Position numbers and translations under genes: made by a program
Part shown: piece by piece, positions 2,386 through 42,574 of the stretch
Numbering within the stretch: the stretch's first letter is position 1
How the letters are laid out: each line of letters opens with the position of its first letter
The notes under the pieces: model-generated
What the model saw: only the letters and a program-made list of their open reading frames with translations
Told to the model about the DNA's origin: nothing
The model's database searches: none
Source: Candidatus Nomurabacteria bacterium
Lineage (GTDB): Bacteria; Patescibacteriota; Minisyncoccia; Phycocordibacterales; UBA918
Length of the DNA stretch: 64,000 bases
Assembly: GCA_020632095.1 (NCBI GenBank)
Contig: JACKGF010000001.1
Span: 198,549-262,548, forward strand
Direction: 5' to 3'

Positions 2386-4983
2386 ATGCATAAGCGTTTT
2401 GAACATCAAGAAATTGAAACTAAGTGGCAACAGCAGTGGCGAACTGATGATATTTATAAAACCACTGACAATTCTGAAAAACCAAAAGCTTTTGTGCTGG
2501 ACATGTTTCCGTATCCTTCAGGAGAAGGTCTGCACGTTGGTCATCCGAAAGGTTACATCGCTACCGACATCTACTCTCGGTATAAAAGAATGACCGGCTA
2601 CGAAGTACTACACCCGATGGGTTGGGACGCTTTTGGTTTGCCAGCGGAAAACTACGCGATAAAAAACAAAGTGCACCCACGGGTAGCAGTTGAGAAAAAC
2701 GTTGCCCGCTTTAAAGAACAACTTGAAGTCTTAGGCTTTGATTATGACTGGAATAGGGAAATCAATACCACTGACCCTGCCTATTACAAATGGACCCAGT
2801 GGATTTTTATTCAACTGTTCAAAAAAGGTTTAGCTTACGAGAGTTACGAACCAATCAACTGGTGTCCGGGCTGTCAGACTGGATTAGCTAATGAAGATTT
2901 AGAGGCTGACGGTACTTGCGAGCGTTGTAATTCGGTTGTAGAAAAAAAACCGATGCGACAGTGGGTACTAAAGATCCGCGAGTACGCTGACCGCATGCTC
3001 GCAGACCTAGATACGCTAGAGTGGCCAGAGCATATCAAGGAAGCCCAGCGTAACTGGATAGGGCGCTCTGAAGGCGCAGAAATCGACTTCAAGCTGTCTA
3101 CTGGCGACACAGTGACAGTGTTTACCACTCGACCCGATACGCTCTTTGGAGCAACTTATATGGTCCTAGCCCCAGAACATCCAATTGTCACCGAACTTAT
3201 TAGGGGTCAGACCCCTAATGGAGTGAATTTGCAGAACAGGGGGGAGGTGGAGGAGTATGCGAAGGAAGTTGCCAACAAAAAGGAGATGGACCGACTCGAT
3301 GACACTAAAGAAAAAACGGGTGTGAAGTTAGAAGGTGTCACCGCCACCAACCCAGCTAACGGTGAAGAAATCCCGGTTTATATCGCCGATTATGTACTAG
3401 CCGGCTACGGTACCGGCGCCATCATGGCCGTGCCAGCCCACGATGAGAGAGACTTTGAGTTTGCTAAGAAGTTTAAGATTGAAATCAAAAGAGTTTTACA
3501 CGGCACCTTAAGTGAAAGCTCGGCATATGAGCTAGCAAACCAAAGAAATGAGGAGTTTGACTATAGTGCTGAAGTTGATGATAAAAATTTCAACCTAACA
3601 AAATACCGAACAAGTCTCGAAAAAACTCTTAATGATAAGTGGGATGAAGACTTGGAATCAGGCGCAATTTTAGGACGAGTTCTTGGGGGCAGTAACAACA
3701 AAACTATAAATCCACTTCCTTTACTTGATAACTTCATATTGAAAAACTCTAATGAGTTTGACGGAATGAGTCCTAAGGAAGCTGGAAAAGCAATCATCGA
3801 AAAAGTTGGTGGGAGAATGACTGCTACATACAAAATCAAGGACTGGGTATTTTCGCGACAACGGTATTGGGGGGAGCCGATTCCGATTGTGCATTGTGAG
3901 CAGTGTGGAGCGGTGCCGGTGCCGGAGGAGCAATTGCCGGTGACTTTGCCAGAGGTGGAGAATTATGAGCCGGCCGGCGACGGGCAATCGCCTTTGTCGA
4001 CGATTGAAGAGTGGGTGAACACTACTTGTCCTAAGTGTAGTAGAGCCGGCCGGCGGGAGACCAACACGATGCCGCAATGGGCGGGTTCTTCCTGGTACTA
4101 CTTACGCTACATGGACCCTAAAAATTCTGAGACTTTGGTATCAAAAGAAAATGAGAAATATTGGGCGCCAGTAGACGTATATGTAGGTGGGGATCACGCA
4201 GTTAGACACCTCATCTATGCTCGTTTTTGGCACAAATTCCTGTATGACATCGGTGTCGTATCGACGATTGAACCCTTCCAACGATTAGAGTTTCTTGGAT
4301 TTATCTTGGCTGAGGATGGACGCAAGATGAGTAAGCGGTGGGGGAACGTGATAAACCCAGATGATATTGTAAAACTAGTTGGGGCAGACACAATGCGAAT
4401 CTATGAGATGTTTATGGGACCATTTGAAAACACTATCGCATGGTCACAAGATGGTCTTGTCGGCGCTAGACGCTTTCTAGAGAGAGTCAATGGACTAACT
4501 GAGCATATTACAGATACTGAACCAAAAGAAACTACTGTTCAGCTACATAAAACTATTAAAAAAGTGTCTGAAGATATTGAAGGATTTAAATTCAATACCG
4601 CGGTGAGTGCCATGATGATCTTTCTCAATCAAGCAGAAAAAGGTGGACTCACTAAAGAAAGTTACCTGACATTCATAAAACTTATCGCCCCGTTTGCTCC
4701 CCACATCACCGAAGAACTTTGGTTGGAAACTGGAGGAAGTAGTATCCATCTAACTAATTTTCCAGTTTACAGTGAGGCACTAGCTAAAGATGAGTTAGTC
4801 ACAATTGGCGTACAAATTAATGGCAAAATGCGAGGAGAGATAACCATATCACCCGAAGCGACTGAAGAAGAGGCAGTGGAAACAATAATGAAAAATGGGT
4901 CGTTAGCTGACAAAATTACTGACCACAATATTAAGAAAATAATCTATGTTAACGGAAGAATTATTAACATTATTTTAACCTGA
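2386..4983 (+). CDS. leuS: leucyl-tRNA synthetase
   Basis: HIGH-type motif PYPSGEGLHVGHPKGY and KMSKS motif KMSKRWGN. Editing-domain signatures TTRPDT and AVPAHDERD are present. Length 865 aa. Confidence 0.95.
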   Translation: MHKRFEHQEIETKWQQQWRTDDIYKTTDNSEKPKAFVLDMFPYPSGEGLHVGHPKGYIATDIYSRYKRMTGYEVLHPMGWDAFGLPAENYAIKNKVHPRVAVEKNVARFKEQLEVLGFDYDWNREINTTDPAYYKWTQWIFIQLFKKGLAYESYEPINWCPGCQTGLANEDLEADGTCERCNSVVEKKPMRQWVLKIREYADRMLADLDTLEWPEHIKEAQRNWIGRSEGAEIDFKLSTGDTVTVFTTRPDTLFGATYMVLAPEHPIVTELIRGQTPNGVNLQNRGEVEEYAKEVANKKEMDRLDDTKEKTGVKLEGVTATNPANGEEIPVYIADYVLAGYGTGAIMAVPAHDERDFEFAKKFKIEIKRVLHGTLSESSAYELANQRNEEFDYSAEVDDKNFNLTKYRTSLEKTLNDKWDEDLESGAILGRVLGGSNNKTINPLPLLDNFILKNSNEFDGMSPKEAGKAIIEKVGGRMTATYKIKDWVFSRQRYWGEPIPIVHCEQCGAVPVPEEQLPVTLPEVENYEPAGDGQSPLSTIEEWVNTTCPKCSRAGRRETNTMPQWAGSSWYYLRYMDPKNSETLVSKENEKYWAPVDVYVGGDHAVRHLIYARFWHKFLYDIGVVSTIEPFQRLEFLGFILAEDGRKMSKRWGNVINPDDIVKLVGADTMRIYEMFMGPFENTIAWSQDGLVGARRFLERVNGLTEHITDTEPKETTVQLHKTIKKVSEDIEGFKFNTAVSAMMIFLNQAEKGGLTKESYLTFIKLIAPFAPHITEELWLETGGSSIHLTNFPVYSEALAKDELVTIGVQINGKMRGEITISPEATEEEAVETIMKNGSLADKITDHNIKKIIYVNGRIINIILT

Positions 4984-5083: not shown

Positions 5084-6109
5084 ATGATTTCATTTAAACC
5101 AAAACAAGTAACTAAAGCACTGCTAGAGGTATTACCTGAGCGAGCTCGTGACGTCCTTGAAAAACGTTATGGACTCGGAAGCACAGGTGACACTCTAACC
5201 TTAGAAGCGATTGGCCAATCGTACGGCATCACACGTGAAAGAGTACGACAAATTGAAAACTATGGTATTCAATCAATCCAGAAGTCTGAAGTGTACAAAA
5301 AAGACTATGATCTTTTTATCGAGATGCAAAAACTCATTGACCAATTGGGTGGTGGTTTAATTGCTGAACATGTACTACTTGAGGAATTGAGTTCCGACCC
5401 GATTGTTCGAAATCACCTATATTTTCTATTGGTAGTAGGTGACCCATTCTTTAAGAGCAAAGAAAACCCAAACTACTCTCACCGTTGGTTCACTGAAAGA
5501 GGAATTGCTGATTCAGTAGAAAAAGCTCTCCGAAATGTCCACAAAGGACTAAATAGAGACGAACTAGTAAGTGAAGCTGAGATATTAAGTCGTTTCAAGA
5601 ACGAATTAATTGAACTGGCTGATAAATACGATGAGGAGGTTCTGAAGCGATGGCTACAGATTTCTAAACAAATTGGTCGCAATCCGCTAGGGGAGTGGGG
5701 CTCAGCTGACAGTCCAAACGTAAGAGTTAAAGGAATTCGTGACTATGCTTACCTTACAGTTAAGCGACATGGTTCACCAATGCACTTCCGTGAAGTAGCT
5801 GAAACAATCAACGAACTATTTGATCACAAAGCGCATGTCGCCACTACCCACAATGAACTTATCAAGGATGCACGATTTGTTTTGGTTGGTCGCGGCCTAT
5901 ACGCTCTGACCGAGTGGGGATACACCACTGGTGTAGTTAAAGACGTACTACGAGAGATTCTAGCTCAGGAAGGACCACTTTCAAGAGAGGAACTTATCGA
6001 TAAGGTTCGCAAAGAACGATACGTTAAAGACAATACCATTTTAGTAAATCTCCAAGATACTAACTTATTTAAGAAGTTATCAAACGGCACTTACGCCATT
6101 GCTGACTAA
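5084..6109 (+). CDS. sigma-70 region-4 (HTH) domain protein with a long unrelated C-terminal region
   Basis: N-terminus LEVLPERARDVLEKRYGL...TLEAIGQSYGITRERVRQIE resembles RpoD region 4. No sigma regions 2 or 3 are present. Confidence 0.5.
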   Translation: MISFKPKQVTKALLEVLPERARDVLEKRYGLGSTGDTLTLEAIGQSYGITRERVRQIENYGIQSIQKSEVYKKDYDLFIEMQKLIDQLGGGLIAEHVLLEELSSDPIVRNHLYFLLVVGDPFFKSKENPNYSHRWFTERGIADSVEKALRNVHKGLNRDELVSEAEILSRFKNELIELADKYDEEVLKRWLQISKQIGRNPLGEWGSADSPNVRVKGIRDYAYLTVKRHGSPMHFREVAETINELFDHKAHVATTHNELIKDARFVLVGRGLYALTEWGYTTGVVKDVLREILAQEGPLSREELIDKVRKERYVKDNTILVNLQDTNLFKKLSNGTYAIAD

Positions 6110-22115: not shown

Positions 22116-22210
22116 AACTATCTCCTTTTCATAAGATGTGTGGATGCTATAAAAAATTTATAAGCAAACTCGCTGTCACACGAACTAGCTCAGACGCAAT
22201 ACGTTTAGAA

Positions 22211-23214
22211 CCCCCAGACACCTTTGAAGTAGGACAGCTATAAAGTAAATTAGCTGTCTATGAAAACATACAGACACATACAATTTGAGGAGCGTTTCGT
22301 AATTGAAAAGTTATTGAACGCAGGGAGTTTGATCAGAGAAATAGCCATCTTCCTCAAACGTAGTCCCAACACCATCAGTCAGGAACTAAAGAAGAATAGG
22401 GTTAATGGAGTCTATGACGCCAAGCAAGCCCAACTAAAAGTAAGTCAACGTCGTTGGCGGGCTAAACGTCAGTGTCTCAAGGTGGCTCTAGATAGTTTCC
22501 TGATTCGTTTCGTAGAAGACAAATTGGAGAAGAAGTGGACCCCTAAACAAATCAGTGGACATCTCAAACGAGAGCTCGGTGTTACCTGTTCCGCCAAAGC
22601 TATATACAAGTTCATAGAAAGTCGTGGTCTGGAATATCGACTATTCTGGCGTTGGAACAAAAAGAAAAGTGGTCCGAAACGGACCACACATAAACCAGCT
22701 GATGATGGCCGTAAATATATAGATATTCGTCCTCTTGGTAGCCATGAGCTAGGTCACTATGAACTAGACTTCATTGTCTCTAAGTACAGTCCATACGTAC
22801 TTCTAGTGGCTACTGACCGTTTAACTAAATACAGCTTGGTACGTCAGTTACCCAATAGAAAACGCCACACAATCAGTGCAGCGTTCTCTAAAATGTTTAG
22901 CAATATTATAGTCAAGAGTATCACCACCGACAACGACATTGCATTCCGTCACTGGACGGAACTAGAACAAATCATACAGGCTCCAATCTATTTCTGCCAC
23001 CCTTATCATTCTTGGGAGAAGGGACTGGTAGAGAATACTAATCGTTGGATTAGATGCTTTGTTCCAAAGCGGAGAGACATTGCGTCTGTTACTCAAGAAG
23101 AATTGAATGAGATTCATGCCTTCTTGAATGACCGACCGAAAGAGTGTATTGATTTTAGGATTTCGAGTGAGTATTATTATGAGCAATCTGTCCTACTTGA
23201 GGGGTAGCTGGAGG
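22211..23214 (+). mobile_element. IS30-family insertion sequence, apparently intact (~1.0 kb)
   Basis: Imperfect 27-bp terminal inverted repeats: cccccagacacctttgaagtaggacag (22211-22237) and ctgtcctacttgaggggtagctggagg (23188-23214). They bracket a single transposase ORF. Confidence 0.75.
22260..23207 (+). CDS. IS30-family DDE transposase
   Basis: N-terminal HTH (IQFEERFVIEKLL...SQELKKN) and C-terminal HSWEKGLVENTNRWIRCFVPK motif. Confidence 0.9.
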   Translation: MKTYRHIQFEERFVIEKLLNAGSLIREIAIFLKRSPNTISQELKKNRVNGVYDAKQAQLKVSQRRWRAKRQCLKVALDSFLIRFVEDKLEKKWTPKQISGHLKRELGVTCSAKAIYKFIESRGLEYRLFWRWNKKKSGPKRTTHKPADDGRKYIDIRPLGSHELGHYELDFIVSKYSPYVLLVATDRLTKYSLVRQLPNRKRHTISAAFSKMFSNIIVKSITTDNDIAFRHWTELEQIIQAPIYFCHPYHSWEKGLVENTNRWIRCFVPKRRDIASVTQEELNEIHAFLNDRPKECIDFRISSEYYYEQSVLLEG

Positions 23215-23384
23215 AAACAAATGCAAAACACACCTTACATAACTATTTAAATTTATTCAAGCTTGATACATTGACTTTTTTTGCTTAAGATAGTGGAAAT
23301 AGGGAAGTAGGTTAAAATCTGGAGTCAAATCGACTCTTTTATTTAATAATACACATTTTTCTACTTAACAATTAACCAATCATC

Positions 23385-32032: not shown

Positions 32033-32161
32033 CAATTTGTCGTTTTGTCCGATTCTGACGTGAGTCAGGAATTCACGATGACGTCTAGGCAAGGGAATAG
32101 AAGGGAATTACTCACCACAAAAATACCTGTCAGACAAAGTTAATTCAAGAAATCTGAAAAC

Positions 32162-32184
32162 GCTCCCCCTTAGGGAGCTTTTTT
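32162..32184 (+). terminator. rho-independent terminator after the ribosomal protein cluster
   Basis: gctccc-cctta-gggagc followed by tttttt. Confidence 0.6.
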
Positions 32185-32360
32185 AGCTAGTTATCGGTTC
32201 TCATATTTTGAGAACAAACCAGCGTCTCTATGTTTCAGACGCTATTCTAGTAAACTATGTAAAATTTGGTAAAAAATATACCCATTCAAAAATATTGTAA
32301 AAACTCTAAATAGATGTGTGTTATTATTTTATGGTTAACTATAATAATCATTCTGTCGGT

Positions 32361-33764
32361 ATGTCTTTACGAAAATCACTAGCTTTAGTTTGTGCTGCAC
32401 TCATTATTATTTCAAGTATTCCTTCAGTTGTTAAGGCAGAAGGAAAGGTGCCAAATGTTGAATCATCACAGGATCAGGACGTCAGTCAAAAAAAAGCGGC
32501 AAAATTAGCTAAGCCTTTTGAAAATAAAAAACCACAAGTATCAGTAACAACTAGTCCTTCTGTTGCTCGGAGTTTTATTTCTAGTGCTAGTGCAGTTGTG
32601 AATGAAAATTTAATCCCCAATGGAGATTTAGAGGACATGACTGGAGAAGAACCGACTTCATGGGGTAGAGGTGGATATGGTCAGAATGTACGTGAATATA
32701 CCTATCCGGTTGCTGGTTCAGGTGGTATAGGTAAGGCTGCTCAAGTATCTATGTCAGAATATACAGACGGAGATGCGCGATGGTACTTTACACCCCTAAC
32801 TCTTTCGCCAGGAGAATATGTATATACCGACATATTTAGCTCAGATATCCCAACTATCATTGAACTTCAACTAAAAAAAGCTGATGGTAGTTATTCATAC
32901 ACAGACATAAAATTTCTTACAGCAACAAACGGTTTTGAAACTAGTTCCGTTAATTTTGTAGTACCAGCCGGTACACAAGATGTTACGGTATACCATTTGA
33001 TCCAAGAGGTTGGAACACTTACTTTAGATTCAGCAACCCTTACGGCTGTTGAGGAAGTTCCTCCACCTCCACCACCTGTTCCAGTACCACACCAAGGAAT
33101 CTTTCAAACCGGGGGTGTCTCTTTACGCTTCGATGATGGTTGGTTATCACAATACACCGCTGCACTACCAGCCATAAAAGAGGCAGGCTTCAAAGCGACT
33201 TTTTACATCACGACACAACAAATTTTTGATAACGGCTACGATGGATTTGTTAGTATTCAACAGATAAAAAATCTTTACGCTGATGGCATGGAAATTGGTA
33301 ATCATACCCGCACCCATCCACACTTAACAGATTTGACAGCTCGACAACAAAAAGCAGAAATAACTGGTGCCTCAAAAGATTTAGCTTCATGGGGAATTCC
33401 GTCAGTAGCCAGTGTTGCATATCCTTATGGAGAATACAACAATACAACGATAAACAAAGTAAAGAAAGATGGTCTTAAAAGTGGAGCTACGACCAATAAC
33501 GGCAGCGTAAACCCATACACAAATCCGTATGTTTTAAACGGTAGTACGGTACTCAAGACAGATTCAGTAGCAAACGTCAAAAACAGGATTGATGCAGCGA
33601 TGGAAAACAAGGAGTGGTTAATCCTTTCGTTTCATAGAATAGACTACAGTGGTGATCTTTATAGCTATACACCTGAAGACTTCTCAGCCGTCATAGATTA
33701 CTTAAAATCTCAAAAAGTACCTGTAGTGACAGTTTCTACCGGAGTAAAGGATTTGGAAGTTTAA
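32361..33764 (+). CDS. secreted polysaccharide deacetylase (NodB domain) with N-terminal beta-rich domain and poly-Pro linker
   Basis: Signal peptide MSLRKSLALVCAALIIISSIPSVVKA. PPPPPVPVP linker. NodB motifs FDDGW and GNHTRTHPH. The track ORF starts 45 nt upstream. Confidence 0.75.
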   Translation: MSLRKSLALVCAALIIISSIPSVVKAEGKVPNVESSQDQDVSQKKAAKLAKPFENKKPQVSVTTSPSVARSFISSASAVVNENLIPNGDLEDMTGEEPTSWGRGGYGQNVREYTYPVAGSGGIGKAAQVSMSEYTDGDARWYFTPLTLSPGEYVYTDIFSSDIPTIIELQLKKADGSYSYTDIKFLTATNGFETSSVNFVVPAGTQDVTVYHLIQEVGTLTLDSATLTAVEEVPPPPPPVPVPHQGIFQTGGVSLRFDDGWLSQYTAALPAIKEAGFKATFYITTQQIFDNGYDGFVSIQQIKNLYADGMEIGNHTRTHPHLTDLTARQQKAEITGASKDLASWGIPSVASVAYPYGEYNNTTINKVKKDGLKSGATTNNGSVNPYTNPYVLNGSTVLKTDSVANVKNRIDAAMENKEWLILSFHRIDYSGDLYSYTPEDFSAVIDYLKSQKVPVVTVSTGVKDLEV

Positions 33765-33976
33765 TTTATTATCTCTTATATGACCAGGTAATTAAATACT
33801 TTTAAACTTCATACTGTTCAGAGTGACAGTATTAATCACACCTAGCACTTCTGCATTAAGTGTGATTTTTTAGTTACTATTATGCAAGCATGGTTAGTTT
33901 CATAAACAGAACAATCAATCATTGTCCGCTCTCTTATAGTTTCCTTAGGCAGGACCTAGGGATTACTTAATCTTGA

Positions 33977-34005
33977 CTAGTGACATTTTACACTTTCTGT
34001 TTTAT
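33977..34005 (+). promoter_or_regulatory. candidate promoter GTGACA-N17-TATACT
   Basis: Read upstream of the 34055 gene. Confidence 0.3.
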
Positions 34006-34054
34006 ACTCACACGCAGTAGCACACCTATAGACAACAAACTTGAGGGGTAAAAA

Positions 34055-34549
34055 GTGAAAGCACTACAATTATTTGCTGACTGCTGGTATATATTACTCG
34101 TAATCTCCTGTCTCGTAGTAGGTGCAACGTGGCTTGCACAGATAGAAGAGGAGAACATGCTAAGGGGACCAGCTCCGTCATTTTACAGCACAGAACAGTA
34201 CACACCTTTCTCTACATGGTTGGTCTTGGCGCTGTTTTCAGTACTCACCTTTATAGCTTCGGCGGGGACAGCGATATTCCTATTGTTGTCACCACACACG
34301 CAAAAGGTGGTGGCATGGACTCTCGAAACCATATCTAGTTGGTGGTGGTTATGGCTCGCTATCCTGATCGTAGCGATATTTCTCTTCATAGCAGCGGAAA
34401 TAGGGGAGGCACAAAATGAAGAAGCGGAGGTGAAGCAAAGAAAAGAAATGGTTATACCCAAATGGGCATTGATTACGACTGTGTTGCTGTCGCTTATCTT
34501 ACTCATTGTTTCATGTATCCACTACCTGTTCACAGTCAACCTAAGCTGA
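34055..34549 (+). CDS. hypothetical polytopic membrane protein (GTG start)
   Basis: GAGGGG SD; about 4 hydrophobic helices. Lies in a GC-elevated block. Confidence 0.5.
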   Translation: MKALQLFADCWYILLVISCLVVGATWLAQIEEENMLRGPAPSFYSTEQYTPFSTWLVLALFSVLTFIASAGTAIFLLLSPHTQKVVAWTLETISSWWWLWLAILIVAIFLFIAAEIGEAQNEEAEVKQRKEMVIPKWALITTVLLSLILLIVSCIHYLFTVNLS

Positions 34550-34568
34550 TGCGAACAAAGCATCAAAG

Positions 34569-34598
34569 CGGCCGATTTATCGGCCGTTGTTTCATTTT
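34569..34598 (+). terminator. hairpin terminator
   Basis: cggccgat-tta-atcggccg followed by ttgtttcatttt. Confidence 0.5.
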
Positions 34599-34638
34599 AT
34601 AGCTTCATATATCGAGACGTGAGACTTCAGCAGCATTT

Positions 34639-34691
34639 TTGATATTAAAGCTTATTAGCTTTATAATGTAGAAAGTATGGTGAATATGAAA
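34639..34691 (+). promoter_or_regulatory. duplicate copy of the grpE promoter and first codons (TTGATA-N17-TATAAT then ATGGTGAATATGAAA)
   Basis: 34658-34691 matches 36694-36727 at 31 of 34 positions. It encodes only MVNMKGNGERVN before a stop. Confidence 0.6.
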
Positions 34692-34780
34692 GGTAATGGG
34701 GAGAGGGTTAATTAAAGCTTGAACTGCAGAGGAGGAGGTAATGGGGAGAGGTCCGAGAGGTAATGGGGAGAGGTCCGTTA
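34692..34780 (+). repeat. iteron-like direct repeats: ggtaatggggagagg at 34692, 34737 and 34759 (the last two as tandem 22-bp units)
   Basis: Exact 15-mer three times. Units 2 and 3 extend to the 22-bp ggtaatggggagaggtccg(aga/tta). The unit resembles the outer end of the inverted repeats listed next. Confidence 0.7.
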
Positions 34781-34823
34781 TAATGCCAGAATCTGTGTTG
34801 TAATTTTAGAATGGGGTTTAATA

Positions 34824-35165
34824 TTAGAACACACAAAATGCACAAATAACGGACGTATCCCCATTAGCCCGTATCCCCATTAGCCAGATTTGACGCAACA
34901 CCATCATGAGCATCCTCACACACTCCAGCTCTTTGTTGACCTGGTAGTATGAATAGGCACTTTGTAGACGACCTGTTAAAAGACCGAAGTTGCCTGCCAC
35001 ACGCAATTCAGCTTGCTCCGTGTCTGGTTCAAACTCCTCGCCCTTCTGGTCGGCACCTTGCACCTGCCGTTTAAGCTGCTGCTGAACGGCCTCAGAGGAG
35101 AAGTTTGCAACCAGGACAGCTACGAAAACCTCGATACCGGATCTTACTTTTTGTGGGTTAAGCAT
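34824..35165 (-). CDS. hypothetical small cytoplasmic protein (114 aa) inside the repeat-bounded element
   Basis: AGGAGAT SD before the ATG of MLNPQKVRSG.... The track's longer 34824..35240 form lacks an SD. About 50% GC. Confidence 0.45.
   Translation of the reverse strand: MLNPQKVRSGIEVFVAVLVANFSSEAVQQQLKRQVQGADQKGEEFEPDTEQAELRVAGNFGLLTGRLQSAYSYYQVNKELECVRMLMMVLRQIWLMGIRANGDTSVICAFCVF
34844..34885 (-). repeat. left terminal inverted repeat of a 1.78-kb element; contains an internal tandem duplication of cgtatccccattagcc
   Basis: Its reverse complement, ggctaatggggatacgggctaatggggatacgtccgttattt, matches 36580-36624 at about 41 of 45 positions. Confidence 0.65.
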
Positions 35166-35251
35166 TTTGTATCTCCTATTCAGAGGAAAAGAGAACCTTA
35201 CGTAACTAGATATTACTACTTTCATCCATAATAAGAGCATTATATTTGTAA

Positions 35252-35297
35252 TATGTCAATATTTTCGCAACTAGATTGATAGCGATCAATATTGACA
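35252..35297. promoter_or_regulatory. 11-bp perfect inverted repeat atgtcaatatt/aatattgacat with 24-bp spacer, between divergent genes
   Basis: Each arm contains TTGACA, pointing outward toward one of the two genes. An inner palindrome ttgatagcgatcaa sits in the spacer. Confidence 0.5.
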
Positions 35298-35383
35298 TTT
35301 GTAGTAAATGACGTACTATCTAGTTATTAAACCGTTCTTTTTTCCGTCGAATGACGGGTTTCTTTTATTTTTGGAGTTAGACA

Positions 35384-35977
35384 ATGGTCAACAATATTCC
35401 ACGCATCATAGCCACGCTTGCTGCTTCTCTCATTCTGTTTTACGGTTCGCCAAGCAACGCGGTACCGACGGAAGAAAGCGCTGACCTGAAAACCAGCGTC
35501 GTTTCTCAGCCAGTCCCAGCCAGTGACAAGAAGGAGTCAGTGATTCTAGTTAGTGATTACTTCTGGGAATCTGAACTACCCAACGAATGGAGCAATGGCA
35601 GTCCGATTATTGTTAACATGAAAAACCCTACTTATGACTCTCCAGTCATGAACAGGCCTCCGAATGAAGCGCGGCCGAGCTGGGTCAATATGAGACGATC
35701 AATTAGCCAATTCACTCGCAACCTGTACTACCAAGTAAGTGTCATGTTGTGTACATACATGGTTGAGTCCAGAGAGGAATACATAACCGGACTTAGTGAC
35801 AAGACAAAAATTGATCCTGACTATGTTAGACACCTAATCCTCGATCATATACAAAGAATAAGTGAGATAAAAAATGTCATGCAAGCAAAACGATTGGATG
35901 AACCGGAGCATCTTCGATTTCATTCACTGGTGGCCAAACATTTGAGCGAAGTGAAGCTACTCGAAGGGATGCTTTAA
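35384..35977 (+). CDS. hypothetical secreted protein (197 aa)
   Basis: GGAG SD. Signal-peptide-like N-terminus IIATLAASLILFYGSPSNA. Confidence 0.5.
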   Translation: MVNNIPRIIATLAASLILFYGSPSNAVPTEESADLKTSVVSQPVPASDKKESVILVSDYFWESELPNEWSNGSPIIVNMKNPTYDSPVMNRPPNEARPSWVNMRRSISQFTRNLYYQVSVMLCTYMVESREEYITGLSDKTKIDPDYVRHLILDHIQRISEIKNVMQAKRLDEPEHLRFHSLVAKHLSEVKLLEGML

Positions 35978-36003
35978 CACCATCTTTTTACAGACAAACA
36001 ATA

Positions 36004-36035
36004 CAGCGCGCCGACCACAAGGTCTGCGCGCTTTT
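36004..36035 (+). terminator. hairpin terminator
   Basis: agcgcgc...gcgcgct followed by ttt. Confidence 0.5.
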
Positions 36036-36301
36036 ACATTATTAATCTGACTCTATTATTTTTCGTCGAAATCTCAGTTCATATATCAGTTCAACTACCG
36101 AATTTACTTAGACTAGAGTGCAACCGGTCTTCCTGAAGAATAATTACCTCATTTTCTATCGAAATTATGACTTTTCTACCCATCTAAGCAGCTTCAATTT
36201 TGACATCAAACTTCTCTTGCTTTACATTCAAAGCAGTTACATTGGTCATTAAAATCAAAACCTGATTAATTACAGTAGTAAATAACCTGCAGGAGAATAT
36301 A

Positions 36302-36643
36302 ATGGATAAGCAATTACTGATCGCACTTTTTCCGTTCTTAACAGGACTGTTCGCATATAACGCGATAAATCTCGCTTTTAGTTGTGTTGGGTGTCATGAA
36401 AATTCTATATTTTCTCCAGATGAATGGAAGAGAATCACTATTTTTTCACTAGGACTACTTATAGTGTCAGCTGCCCTGAAAGCCTTTACATCATCATCGA
36501 TAGAAACACAAGTAGTAACAATGGGCACACTAACCTTCCTTCGAGATACATGGTTCTTATCACTAATTGTGTTGATTGGCTCAATATTTGAGGCCAACGG
36601 GGATACGAGGCCAACGGGGATACGTCCGTTATTTATTCGATAA
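36302..36643 (+). CDS. hypothetical membrane protein (113 aa) whose C-terminus is encoded by the right inverted repeat
   Basis: AGGAGA SD and 3 hydrophobic helices. The last ~20 codons run through 36580-36624. Confidence 0.45.
   Translation: MDKQLLIALFPFLTGLFAYNAINLAFSCVGCHENSIFSPDEWKRITIFSLGLLIVSAALKAFTSSSIETQVVTMGTLTFLRDTWFLSLIVLIGSIFEANGDTRPTGIRPLFIR
36580..36624 (+). repeat. right terminal inverted repeat (tandem gaggccaacggggatac x2 then gtccgttattt)
   Basis: Pairs with 34844-34885. Confidence 0.65.
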
Positions 36644-36675
36644 GTGTTGCGTAATGTTTCCAAAAGCAAAATTTT

Positions 36676-36704
36676 TGACATTTAGGTCTTCTGGCTTTAT
36701 AATG
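36676..36704 (+). promoter_or_regulatory. grpE promoter TTGACA-N17-TATAAT, 8 nt before ATG
   Basis: Perfect consensus hexamers. Essentially a leaderless transcript. Confidence 0.6.
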
Positions 36705-36712
36705 CGAAAAGT

Positions 36713-37315
36713 ATGGTGAATATGAAAAATAATGACGACGATTTCGAAACTGAAATCACCAACGAGGACGGAAATGATATTGAATTACCCGAGTTAGAGG
36801 ATATTGAGGAACGCACGGAGGATAAAATTAAGAAATTAAGACAAAAATTATCCGAGTGTGAAGAGGAGAAAAAAGCGATTTTGGATGAGTCACAACGAAC
36901 GAAAGCTGACTTCCTAAACGCCCGCAAACGACTAGAAGACGAAAGGGCACGCGACCGCATCCGTTACCGCAAGCAACACGTTGAAGAGTTACTACCACTG
37001 TGTGACAGTTTTCAGATGGCCATGAGTAATAAAGAAGCCTGGGAGAAGGCGGACCCAGCTTGGCGGGTCGGAATTGAAGGAATTCACAGTCAATTACTGA
37101 ATATACTCAATTCTTATGGAGTAAAGGCGGTATCGCCAGAAGGCGAGGTTTTCAGCCCTCATCAACACGAAGCGATTGGCACCGAAGACGTCGAAGATGA
37201 AGCACTACACGACAAGATAGTTAGTGTGGTACAAAAAGGTTACGAGATGACTACGGGTGACACGACAGAAACTATCAGACCAGCCCGAGTCACCACTGGA
37301 ATAAAGATTAAGTAA
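36713..37315 (+). CDS. grpE: nucleotide exchange factor GrpE
   Basis: Acidic N-terminus, coiled coil, GrpE C-terminal domain. Sits upstream of dnaK. Confidence 0.85.
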   Translation: MVNMKNNDDDFETEITNEDGNDIELPELEDIEERTEDKIKKLRQKLSECEEEKKAILDESQRTKADFLNARKRLEDERARDRIRYRKQHVEELLPLCDSFQMAMSNKEAWEKADPAWRVGIEGIHSQLLNILNSYGVKAVSPEGEVFSPHQHEAIGTEDVEDEALHDKIVSVVQKGYEMTTGDTTETIRPARVTTGIKIK

Positions 37316-42088: not shown

Positions 42089-42574
42089 ATGAGCTGGATA
42101 TACGTTTTTGATTTTTTGACTGAAATTGCATTTTTGCTTTTGGTATTTACTCTGGCTTTGTGCTTTGCGATTTTCGTCGGCCGACAAGCCATTATGAACT
42201 TAATATTTGGTCTATATCTGGCCCTATTAATTTCAATTGAATTTCCGTACTACGACACTATTTTCAAAGGTTTGACCAGCGACCATACGCAGGCTGGAGC
42301 CAAACTCGGATTCTTCCTCTTTATTACCACTCTCACCACCACACTCTGCTATCGCGTCATGCCCTCCGAATTTAGAGAAAAACGCTTTGAAAGTATACCC
42401 AAAAAGGCCATCCTGGCTCTGGCGGCTACGATTTTAGTGATGATATTTAGTTTTAATGTCCTGCCGGTCACTGAATTCCTCACCCCTAGTACCCCCATCC
42501 AATCCCTCTTCGCCCCTGAAGCCTACTACTTCTGGTGGCTCCTAGCCCCGTTGGTGGTTTTGTACTTTGTATAA
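42089..42574 (+). CDS. hypothetical polytopic membrane protein
   Basis: Four hydrophobic helices. Confidence 0.5.
   Translation: MSWIYVFDFLTEIAFLLLVFTLALCFAIFVGRQAIMNLIFGLYLALLISIEFPYYDTIFKGLTSDHTQAGAKLGFFLFITTLTTTLCYRVMPSEFREKRFESIPKKAILALAATILVMIFSFNVLPVTEFLTPSTPIQSLFAPEAYYFWWLLAPLVVLYFV

What the first reader, a model, noticed from the sequence alone, without database searches (positions are those of the whole stretch)
34844..36624. A 1.78-kb segment bounded by 45-bp terminal inverted repeats with internally duplicated ends and no transposase
The left end read on the minus strand is ggctaatggggatacgggctaatggggatacgtccgttattt. The right end on the plus strand is ggccaacggggatacgaggccaacggggatacgtccgttattt. 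They match at about 41 of 45 positions, and the tccgttattt termini face outward. Each TIR contains a tandem duplication of a 16-17-bp unit. Inside are three SD-preceded ORFs and no recombinase. The ORFs are a 114-aa cytoplasmic protein (minus strand), a 197-aa secreted protein and a 113-aa membrane protein. The membrane protein's C-terminus is encoded by the right TIR. I read this as a candidate non-autonomous mobile cassette, or the target of a site-specific recombinase encoded elsewhere.
Basis: seen in the sequence. Interest (0 to 1): 0.75.

Follow-up and report, generated by a model that had tools for sequence, protein, structure and literature searches.

The report
Orphan tyrosine-transposon ends flanking orphan genes
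The two inverted repeats are real, but they are leftover ends of a small transposon family common in Candidate Phyla Radiation (CPR) bacteria and they point away from the 1.78-kb segment, so the three genes lie between transposon remnants, not inside a mobile cassette.

Summary
Both ends carry tandem 16/17-nt units and share an exact 19-mer. They match at 38 of 43 aligned positions, not 41 of 45.

A third repeat cluster lies at 34690-34812. Each repeat also continues about 26 nt further on its TCCGTTATTT side.

The roughly 50-nt motif (AATGGGGATACGTCCGTTATTTT-N10-TGTGTTGTAATATTA) is the terminal inverted repeat of a roughly 770-bp element. That element encodes a RAYT-like Y1/HUH tyrosine transposase and is widespread in CPR bacteria (at least 2,570 protein clusters). 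In all 13 full elements examined, the TCCGTTAT side faces the transposase gene. In the window that side faces away from the segment.

The "right TIR" is a solo end (36590-36665). The closest described kind is the TIRtron/TIRYT class (Di Nocera 2013), whose repeats carry a GGGGWSAS motif.

The three ORFs have no homologues and sit in a variable interval between rpsI and grpE. They were seen only at this locus and only in one orientation. The tandem end duplications recur across the family and vary in copy number between populations.

Verdict: new member of a known kind; the cassette reading is not supported.

One feature stays unexplained. A 70-nt diverged duplicate of the grpE promoter and gene start abuts the outer edge of the repeat cluster.

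The parts
34629..34698 (+). D1-A: a diverged second copy of the grpE promoter (TTGATA-17-TATAAT) plus ATGGTGAATATGAAA. It ends in TAATG exactly where the first repeat unit begins.
   Evidence: D1, 70 nt, 79% identical to 36665-36734. (promoter match, 11 of 12). (the same blocks are conserved upstream of grpE in relatives).
34690..34756 (+). Two partial units from the outer edge of the repeat (GGTAATGGGGAGAGG...). u1 is 34690-34734 and u2 is 34735-34756.
   Evidence: (D3), and (34739-34755 matches profile positions 1-17).
34757..34812 (+). Full-length repeat copy; left arm of the empty doublet.
   Evidence: 34762-34807, E = 2.2e-9. (aligns with the family).
34813..34869 (-). Full-length repeat copy; right arm of the doublet.
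   Evidence: 34865->34813, E = 8.5e-11. (the doublet folds as a long hairpin, z = -5.65). (88.7% identical to the right end of the L034 element).
34870..34885 (-). Extra 16-nt outer unit. Its copy number varies between populations.
   Evidence: D7. (contig L033 has one unit). (this gives the ORF1 variant P0003 a different C-terminal tail).
34824..35165 (-). ORF1, 113 aa, no homologues. Its last roughly 20 codons lie inside the repeat.
   Evidence: (AlphaFold2 pLDDT 56, helical).
35334..35337 (.). Site where another population carries an extra copy of the window's IS30-family element, between ORF1 and ORF2.
   Evidence: contigs L026 and L033 from sample ERZ27248697..
35384..35977 (+). ORF2, 197 aa, signal-peptide-like N-terminus, no homologues.
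   Evidence: (only itself; NCBI locus tag H6784_00955, Candidatus Nomurabacteria). (pLDDT 45).
36302..36643 (+). ORF3, 113 aa, three hydrophobic segments, no homologues. Its last roughly 18 codons lie inside the repeat.
   Evidence: (only its one-unit variant P0004, plus low-complexity hits)..
36590..36606 (+). Extra 17-nt outer unit. Its copy number varies between populations.
   Evidence: D6. (contig L029 has one unit, in mid-contig).
36607..36665 (+). Solo full-length repeat copy. Its inner side faces the grpE promoter.
   Evidence: 36613-36660, E = 4.4e-10. No partner copy was found downstream in the window.
36665..36734 (+). D1-B: the working grpE promoter (TTGACA-17-TATAAT, 12 of 12) and the first codons of grpE.
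   Evidence: (GrpE, 118 bits).

Best explanation
The repeats are orphan terminal inverted repeats (TIRs) of a small IS-like element. That element encodes a RAYT-like Y1/HUH tyrosine transposase and belongs to the TIRtron/TIRYT kind. It is abundant in Candidate Phyla Radiation (CPR) bacteria.

Shown here:
- The window holds three full copies of the roughly 50-nt repeat. Two of them form an empty, internally deleted doublet at 34735-34885. One is a solo end at 36590-36665. There are also short partial copies of the outer edge.
- The 1.78-kb segment is ordinary DNA lying between these remnants. It is part of a 4.7-kb variable interval between rpsI and grpE that in some relatives is only about 0.2 kb.
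- ORF1 and ORF3 run into the repeats, so their C-terminal tails are accidental. The tails change by frameshift when the number of units changes.

Inferred:
- If the genome encodes a matching transposase, it would bind these ends and nick at the outer AATGGGG edge.
- The tandem 15-108-nt duplications always start at that edge. I read them as footprints of nicking, short strand-displacement synthesis and resealing by the enzyme-linked 5' end.
- The doublet hairpin, and the small hairpin plus T-run at the solo end, may also act as terminators.
For: 1. A scan of species-representative genomes for the 20-mer found 13 loci. Eleven of them show the same 40-50-nt context.
2. L006, L007 and L011 encode 222-223-aa proteins with a Pfam Y1_Tnp domain (59-64 bits against a cut-off of 23). 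Their best NCBIfam match is the REP-associated tyrosine transposase family. The HUH motif (HWH) and the YVEQNP tyrosine are present.
3. In 13 loci holding a full-length transposase gene, profile position 1 (AATGGGG) is distal to the gene and the TCCGTTAT side is proximal.
4. Internally deleted mini copies exist at L001 5392-5584, L005 and L010. An empty doublet with a duplicated outer unit lies at L042 5612-5726.
5. The profile search finds exactly three full copies in the window.
6. The left repeat region is 88.7% identical to the right end of a full element in L034. L034 comes from a related genome (S9 protein 84.6% identical) and its element also lies downstream of rpsI.
7. Units GGGGAGAG fit the published TIRYT motif GGGGWSAS (PMC3733652, PMC6006769).
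8. Partial copies always start at the outer edge and lie outside the full copy.
9. Unit copy number differs between populations.
10. In relatives, rpsI is followed directly by grpE or by unrelated filler.
Against: - No transposase gene was seen in the same genome. Only 64 kb of a roughly 997-kb contig was available, so current activity is unknown.
- Four of the seven units read GGGGATAC, which fits GGGGWSAS at 7 of 8 positions.
- The CPR transposases give no Pfam helix-turn-helix hit in their C-terminal extension. Such a hit was reported for the subclass equated with TIRYT.
- The nick-extend-reseal origin of the tandem units is inference only. Slippage, or nested insertion followed by deletion, would give similar products.
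- The outward-facing geometry recurs in L044, where a 78-aa ORF lies between a solo repeat and a full element. I cannot exclude that such arrangements sometimes move.
Confidence: 0.8

Rival explanations
1. The 1.78-kb segment (34844-36634) is a non-autonomous cassette. A transposase encoded elsewhere would mobilise it as a unit by recognising the two inverted repeats.
For: - The repeats are true transposon ends, and no transposase lies between them.
- The cargo ORFs are lineage-specific, as expected for acquired DNA.
- A similar outward-facing arrangement around a small ORF exists in L044.
Against: - The ends are inside-out relative to all 13 autonomous elements examined.
- The left repeat is paired with its own partner 10 nt away.
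- The repeats extend about 26 nt beyond the proposed termini.
- The cargo was never seen at a second site or in a second lineage. Every public contig that carries it is colinear with the window.
Confidence: 0.06
2. The acquired unit is the 2,036-bp block bracketed by the 70-nt direct repeats D1-A and D1-B (34629-34698 and 36665-36734), not the block bracketed by the inverted repeats. On this view a transposon end once interrupted grpE after about codon 7. An intact grpE 5' end then arrived from a diverged relative, together with ORF1-3. Entry could have been by recombination anchored in grpE and in repeat copies, or by integration of a circle carrying a replacement gene start.
For: - D1-A ends in TAATG exactly at the outer edge of the first repeat unit.
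- Differences between D1-A and D1-B cluster in the promoter spacer. The -35 differs at one base; the -10 and GTATGGTGAATATGAAA are identical. These same blocks are conserved between lineages. That pattern suggests two orthologous promoters rather than a decaying local duplicate.
- Gene-fragment duplicates also abut repeat edges in L034 (rpsI, 118 nt, 94%) and L013 (3' end of an ABC ATPase gene).
- In L051 a similar duplicate (152 nt of a tRNA-synthetase gene 3' end) lies about 280 nt from a repeat.
Against: - No empty-site or intermediate allele was found.
- Similar direct-repeat-flanked inserts in L042/L043 and L051 do not touch a repeat edge, so the process may be independent of the transposon.
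- This account is compatible with the best explanation for the repeats themselves rather than an alternative to it.
Confidence: 0.3
3. The 45-bp inverted repeats mediate inversion of the 1.78-kb segment, making it a DNA switch.
For: Inverted repeats of this size can support inversion. Most short-read assemblies break at the repeats.
Against: - Five public contigs from at least four samples cross one or other end. All show the window's orientation: L033 at the left end, and L026, L027, L029 and L030 at the right end.
- No invertase gene lies nearby.
- Inversion would produce no obvious promoter-to-gene rewiring.
Confidence: 0.03
4. The repeated units are operator or RNA regulatory sites for the adjacent grpE-dnaK heat-shock operon.
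For: They lie next to the grpE promoter. A small hairpin plus T-run is present at 36613-36630.
Against: - The same motif flanks transposase genes at unrelated loci in many genomes.
- Relatives with the same conserved grpE promoter lack it.
- No Rfam family matched.
- It does not resemble the CIRCE, HAIR or CtsR heat-shock operator boxes (from my own knowledge of those consensus sequences).
Confidence: 0.02

Closest known systems
[quoted passage not shown] 2013, PMC3733652; equated with TnpA-REP subclass 2.1 by Quentin et al. 2018, PMC6006769)
   Same: - A RAYT-like Y1/HUH transposase gene flanked by long inverted repeats rather than REP hairpins.
- A GGGGWSAS motif near the outer edge of the repeat.
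- Extra repeat copies scattered as singles, dimers and clusters.
- A long C-terminal extension on the transposase.
   Different: - The published examples are from Proteobacteria, Acidobacteria and similar groups. This family is from CPR/Patescibacteria.
- Its roughly 50-nt repeat is conserved across several candidate phyla.
- The most common core is GGGGATAC, which fits the motif at 7 of 8 positions.
- The C-terminal extension gives no Pfam helix-turn-helix hit.
- I found no description of the outer-edge tandem duplications in the two papers I read.
REP/REPIN-RAYT systems (Nunvar 2010; Bertels and Rainey 2011, PMC3116915)
   Same: - Short non-coding repeats derived from the flanks of a Y1 transposase gene.
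- Inverted doublets that fold into a long hairpin, as 34750-34890 does (z = -5.65).
- Location in intergenic DNA and at the 3' ends of genes.
   Different: - There is no GTAG-tagged short GC-rich palindrome. Single arms do not fold better than shuffled sequence (z from 0 to -0.9).
- The transposase scores below the NCBIfam RAYT cut-off (61 against 80 bits).
- The gene behaves like an insertion sequence: thousands of variants, mostly on roughly 1-kb contigs.
IS200/IS605 family (TnpA Y1; IS608, ISDra2)
   Same: The Pfam Y1_Tnp catalytic domain with an HUH motif and a single tyrosine. Transposition via single-stranded DNA is presumed.
   Different: IS200/IS605 elements have no terminal inverted repeats; they use different subterminal hairpins at their left and right ends. 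Here the two ends are 56-nt inverted repeats, 80% complementary (L034). The NCBIfam IS200 score is 18.5 against a cut-off of 55.
Bacterial MITEs (for example RUP, NEMIS/Correia, ERIC)
   Same: The 150-bp doublet at 34735-34885 is, in structure, a miniature inverted-repeat element made only of two ends. It lies at the ends of genes and alters the C-termini of ORFs.
   Different: The parent transposase is an HUH tyrosine enzyme, not a DDE enzyme. No target-site duplication is evident.

Membership tests
TIRtron/TIRYT repeat family | The repeat flanks a RAYT-like Y1 transposase gene on both sides in inverted orientation. | tested here: met
   Met in related loci: L006 3473/4236, L011 1667/2430, L034 2941-2996/3673-3728 (56 nt, 80%), and L036, L038-L044, L049 and L051. 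The window itself holds only orphan copies.
TIRtron/TIRYT repeat family | A GGGGWSAS motif in the repeat. | tested here: met
   GGGGAGAG at 34698, 34743 and 34765 fits exactly. GGGGATAC in the other four units fits at 7 of 8 positions.
TIRtron/TIRYT repeat family | Repeat copies also occur away from the gene as singles, dimers or clusters. | tested here: met
   Window: a doublet, a solo copy and partial units. L042 has a doublet at 5612-5726. L044 has a solo copy at 3660-3704.
TIRtron/TIRYT repeat family | A cognate transposase gene is present in the same genome. | not testable with these tools
   None in the 64-kb window (tblastn, best E = 0.3). The rest of the roughly 997-kb contig could not be fetched.
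TIRtron/TIRYT repeat family | The transposase has an HUH motif, a catalytic tyrosine and a C-terminal helix-turn-helix-like extension (subclass 2.1). | tested here: inconclusive
   HWH and YVEQNP are present, and there is a roughly 85-aa C-terminal extension. The extension gives no Pfam hit even at E <= 10.
Classical REP/REPIN-RAYT | A GTAG or GTGG tetranucleotide 5' of a short GC-rich hairpin in each repeat. | tested here: not met
   No GTAG tag is present. Single arms fold no better than shuffles (z from -0.01 to -0.91). Only the doublet folds significantly (z = -5.65).
Classical REP/REPIN-RAYT | The transposase reaches the NCBIfam REP_Tyr_transpos equivalog cut-off. | tested here: not met
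   61.2 bits against a cut-off of 80.
IS200/IS605 | A Y1_Tnp transposase with dissimilar subterminal hairpin ends and no terminal inverted repeats. | tested here: not met
   The Y1_Tnp domain is present, but the ends are long inverted repeats. The IS200 NCBIfam score is 18.5 against a cut-off of 55.
   Both outer (AATGGGG) edges face into the segment. In 13 of 13 full elements they face outward.
   ORF1, ORF2 and ORF3 have no relatives beyond their own locus. All 8 public contigs are colinear with the window, apart from an IS30 insertion.
Invertible DNA segment | Both orientations are present in natural populations. | tested here: not met
   None of the 5 contigs that cross an end shows the inverted orientation. 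Read-level data were not available.

The most novel reading that the evidence does not exclude
These tyrosine-transposon ends may actively reshape conserved gene neighbourhoods in the small genomes of CPR bacteria. The idea has two parts.

1. The HUH enzyme nicks at the outer AATGGGG edge. Nick, extend and reseal cycles would then produce the edge-anchored tandem units of 15-108 nt.
2. Insertion into essential genes (grpE here, rpsI in L034, an ABC ATPase gene in L013) is survived only when an intact gene end arrives together with foreign orphan genes. This would leave the truncated gene copy abutting the repeat edge, and would build islets such as ORF1-3.

That would be a route of gene gain linked to a Y1 transposon. 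I found no description of it in the two TIRYT papers I read.
Probability: 0.2. Interest if true: 0.55.

Novelty: new member of a known kind. Interest (0 to 1): 0.3.

Why it matters
- It corrects the annotation. The three ORFs are not cargo of a mobile cassette. The odd C-terminal tails of ORF1 and ORF3 are read-through into transposon ends, and these tails shift frame between populations.
- It shows that the little-studied TIRYT kind has a large, sequence-conserved branch in CPR/Patescibacteria. These ends explain why short-read assemblies break at such loci.
- The edge-anchored tandem duplications, and the gene-fragment copies at repeat edges, offer a sequence-level handle on where and how these uncharacterised HUH enzymes cut.

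Tried and rejected
- **Rfam, 30-42 kb at E <= 1:** only two chance hits elsewhere.
- **Pfam and NCBIfam on ORF1-3 and the neighbouring 164-aa membrane ORF:** nothing usable.
- **Homology searches for ORF1, ORF2 and ORF3:** each found only itself or a frameshift variant. P0005 and P0006 are low-complexity hits.
- **AlphaFold2 from single sequences:** ORF2 scored pLDDT 45 and ORF1 scored 56. These were too poor for fold searches, so none was run.
- **Single repeat arms folded as ssDNA:** no better than shuffles, so these are not classical REP palindromes.
- **tblastn for the transposase in the window:** none.
- **PDB sequence search with the transposase:** no hit.
- **Viral contigs scanned for the 20-mer:** none.
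- **Near-match at 42541 on the minus strand:** lacks the TCCGTTAT context and is a chance hit.
- **Raw count from the genome scan:** 13 loci is close to my rough chance estimate of about 9 for this degenerate 20-mer. I therefore relied on the conserved 40-50-nt context and the linked transposase genes, not the count. L012 (Planctomycetota) looks like a chance hit.
- **L026 and L030 "165-aa minus-strand gene":** I first took this for a variant allele. It is only an alternative gene call on identical DNA.
Full report
**1. The observation**

Each end holds an exact tandem duplication. The units are 16 nt on the left (34854-34869 and 34870-34885) and 17 nt on the right (36590-36606 and 36607-36623).

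The two ends share an exact 19-mer, GGGGATACGTCCGTTATTT. About 0.02 occurrences are expected by chance.

The three ORFs are present, each preceded by GGAG:

| ORF | Coordinates | Strand | Length |
|---|---|---|---|
| ORF1 | 34824-35165 | - | 113 aa |
| ORF2 | 35384-35977 | + | 197 aa |
| ORF3 | 36302-36643 | + | 113 aa |

None has a Pfam or NCBIfam match.

**2.

The 12-mer core AAYGGGGAKASG has seven exact matches in the 64 kb (nine when one mismatch is allowed, against 1.1 expected), and all seven are at this locus. Three of them form a further plus-strand cluster at 34690-34781.

As single-stranded DNA, 34750-34890 folds into one long hairpin (z = -5.65).

**3. What the repeat is**

I scanned one genome per species for AAYGGGGAKASGTCCGTTAT and obtained 13 loci. 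That number alone is near my rough chance estimate of about 9. However, 11 of the loci share the same 40-50-nt context: AATGGGGATACGTCCGTTATTTT, about 10 variable nt, then TGTGKTGTAATATTA.

In L006, L007 and L011 the motif flanks a 222-223-aa ORF.
- The ORF has a Pfam Y1_Tnp domain (59-64 bits against a cut-off of 23).
- Its best NCBIfam match is the REP-associated tyrosine transposase family (61 bits, below the cut-off of 80). IS200 scores far lower.
- The HUH motif (HWH) and the YVEQNP tyrosine are present.

The protein family is large. At least 2,570 90%-identity clusters match at E <= 1e-20. Most are on roughly 1-kb contigs. Every hit that carries an organism name in its source annotation comes from Pacebacteria, Kaiserbacteria, Taylorbacteria or Minisyncoccia.

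I fetched further loci: L034, L036, L038-L044, L049 and L051. A profile built from the repeat shows the same geometry in every one. The repeat lies on both sides of the gene. The AATGGGG edge is distal and the TCCGTTAT side is proximal, about 45 nt from the start codon on one side and overlapping the stop codon on the other.

Internally deleted mini copies occur at L001 5392-5584, L005 and L010. An empty doublet occurs at L042 5612-5726.

**4. Consequence for the finding**

The profile finds exactly three full repeat copies in the window:

| Copy | Strand | E-value |
|---|---|---|
| 34762->34807 | + | 2.2e-9 |
| 34865->34813 | - | 8.5e-11 |
| 36613->36660 | + | 4.4e-10 |

The first two face each other and form an empty doublet. 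The third is a solo end whose inner side faces the grpE promoter. It is flank, not cargo.

The left repeat region (34819-34888) is 88.7% identical to the right end of the complete element in L034. L034 comes from a related genome (S9 protein 84.6% identical), and its element also sits downstream of rpsI. The doublet is thus plausibly a gutted copy of such an element.

No transposase gene is present in the window. The rest of the genome could not be read.

**5. The tandem units**

Partial or full tandem copies of the outer part of the repeat are common across the family. Observed unit lengths are 15, 16, 17, 20, 22, 29, 33, 44, 45, 60, 62, 65, 79, 83 and 108 nt. They occur in L034, the window, L042, L001, L036, L041, L038, L043 and L006.

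In the profile hits, partial copies always begin at profile positions 1-6 and lie outside the full copy.

In this species the number of units varies between populations.
- L033 has one 16-nt unit on the left. L027, at its contig end, also shows one.
- L029 has one 17-nt unit on the right.
- Each change shifts the reading frame of the ORF1 or ORF3 tail, giving variants P0003 and P0004.

These tails are therefore incidental.

My inference is that the HUH enzyme nicks at the outer edge, that a short stretch is copied by strand displacement, and that the enzyme-linked 5' end then reseals the strand. This is not tested. Slippage would give similar products.

**6. The three ORFs and their setting**

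ORF2 matches only itself among 5.8 billion proteins. NCBI lists it as H6784_00955, Candidatus Nomurabacteria. ORF1 matches only itself and its frameshift variant. ORF3 matches only its variant in an exhaustive HMMER scan. Single-sequence AlphaFold2 models were poor (pLDDT 45 and 56).

In relatives whose GrpE is 61-64% identical, the intervals are as follows:

| Locus | What lies between rpsI and grpE |
|---|---|
| L017, L018 | about 215 nt |
| L015/L016, L019, L021 | unrelated filler of 0.6-1.4 kb |
| This window | 4.68 kb: a polysaccharide deacetylase gene, a membrane ORF, the repeats and ORF1-3 |

None of the window's genes in this interval is found in the relatives' loci. The interval is a variable hotspot.

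Eight public contigs carry these ORFs. All are colinear with the window, and most end at the repeats. None shows the segment inverted or at another site.

**7. An unexplained extra: the D1 direct repeat**

A 70-nt direct repeat brackets the whole block: 34629-34698 and 36665-36734, 79% identical. The downstream copy is the real grpE promoter and gene start. The upstream copy ends in TAATG exactly where the first repeat unit begins.

The differences between the two copies fall in the promoter spacer. The -35 hexamers differ at one base (TTGATA against TTGACA); the -10 and GTATGGTGAATATGAAA are identical. These are also the blocks conserved among relatives. That pattern looks like two orthologous promoters rather than a decaying local copy.

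Comparable gene-fragment copies abut repeat edges in two other loci, and similar inserts occur elsewhere.
- L034: 118 nt of rpsI, 94% identical, abutting the left repeat.
- L013: the 3' end of an ABC ATPase gene, abutting a repeat edge.
- L051 and L042/L043: similar inserts flanked by direct repeats, but not touching a repeat.

Possible causes are rescue of a gene hit by the transposon through acquisition of an intact allele, read-through transduction by the HUH enzyme, or a process unrelated to the transposon. None was tested.

**8. Comparison with known systems**

The closest described kind is the TIRtron/TIRYT class: RAYT-like genes flanked by long inverted repeats that share GGGGWSAS, with extra repeat copies as singles, dimers and clusters (PMC3733652). 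Quentin et al. equated this class with TnpA-REP subclass 2.1 (PMC6006769).

Three window units (GGGGAGAG) fit the motif exactly. Four (GGGGATAC) fit at 7 of 8 positions.

The repeats are not classical REPs. There is no GTAG tag, and single arms do not fold better than shuffled sequence. The parent elements are not IS200/IS605 in the strict sense, because their ends are long inverted repeats.

The library search found only these two papers that mention TIRYT. Neither describes a CPR branch.

**9. Verdict**

The ends are true mobile-element ends that lack a local transposase. The proposed 1.78-kb cassette is not supported.

This is a new member of a known, little-studied kind. Interest is modest. 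The main open points are the origin of the edge-anchored tandem units and of the gene-fragment copies at repeat edges.

Noticed in passing
window 22207-23216; insertion site at window 35334-35337: An IS30-family insertion sequence of about 1,010 bp. It encodes a 315-aa protein with Pfam HTH_38 and rve domains and has 27-nt inverted ends at 22211-22237 and 23188-23214. In sample ERZ27248697 (contigs L026 and L033), an extra copy sits in reverse orientation between ORF1 and ORF2, with a 3-4 bp overlap at the junctions.
   Followed up: partly
window 34629-34698 and 36665-36734; L034 2022-2139 and 2823-2940; L013 3802-3850 and 4513-4561; L051 2583-2734 and 3517-3668: Diverged direct repeats (79-94% identical) made of the end of a conserved gene bracket small orphan-gene inserts. 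In the window, L034 and L013 one copy abuts the outer edge of a transposon end. The origin is unknown.
   Followed up: partly
L042 1725-1859 and 2380-2514 (the same in L043): A HicA/HicB toxin-antitoxin pair is bracketed by 135-nt direct repeats (90% identical) derived from the 3' end of the upstream 159-aa ORF. This suggests that cassette insertion with duplication of a gene end is more general in these genomes.
   Followed up: no
window 32033-36712, compared with L015-L022: The interval between rpsI (ribosomal protein S9) and grpE ranges from about 0.2 kb to 4.7 kb among relatives, and its contents are unrelated from one lineage to the next. In L034 a complete tyrosine-transposon element sits just downstream of rpsI.
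   Followed up: partly
window 36675-36730 and upstream of grpE in L014, L015, L017, L018 and L020: The grpE promoter and the block GTATGGTGAATATGAA are conserved almost base for base among relatives whose GrpE proteins are only about 62% identical. This hints at a conserved 5' regulatory element.
   Followed up: no
window 35203-35216 and 35313-35326: A 14-nt inverted repeat (93% complementary, arms 96 nt apart) lies in the divergent ORF1-ORF2 intergenic region, around a promoter-like site. It could be an operator.
   Followed up: no
L002, L003 and L008: Contigs binned as Acidimicrobiales and Patiriisocius carry the full CPR-type repeat context. L002 also holds a remnant of the transposase N-terminus. 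This suggests either mis-binned CPR contigs or horizontal transfer.
   Followed up: no
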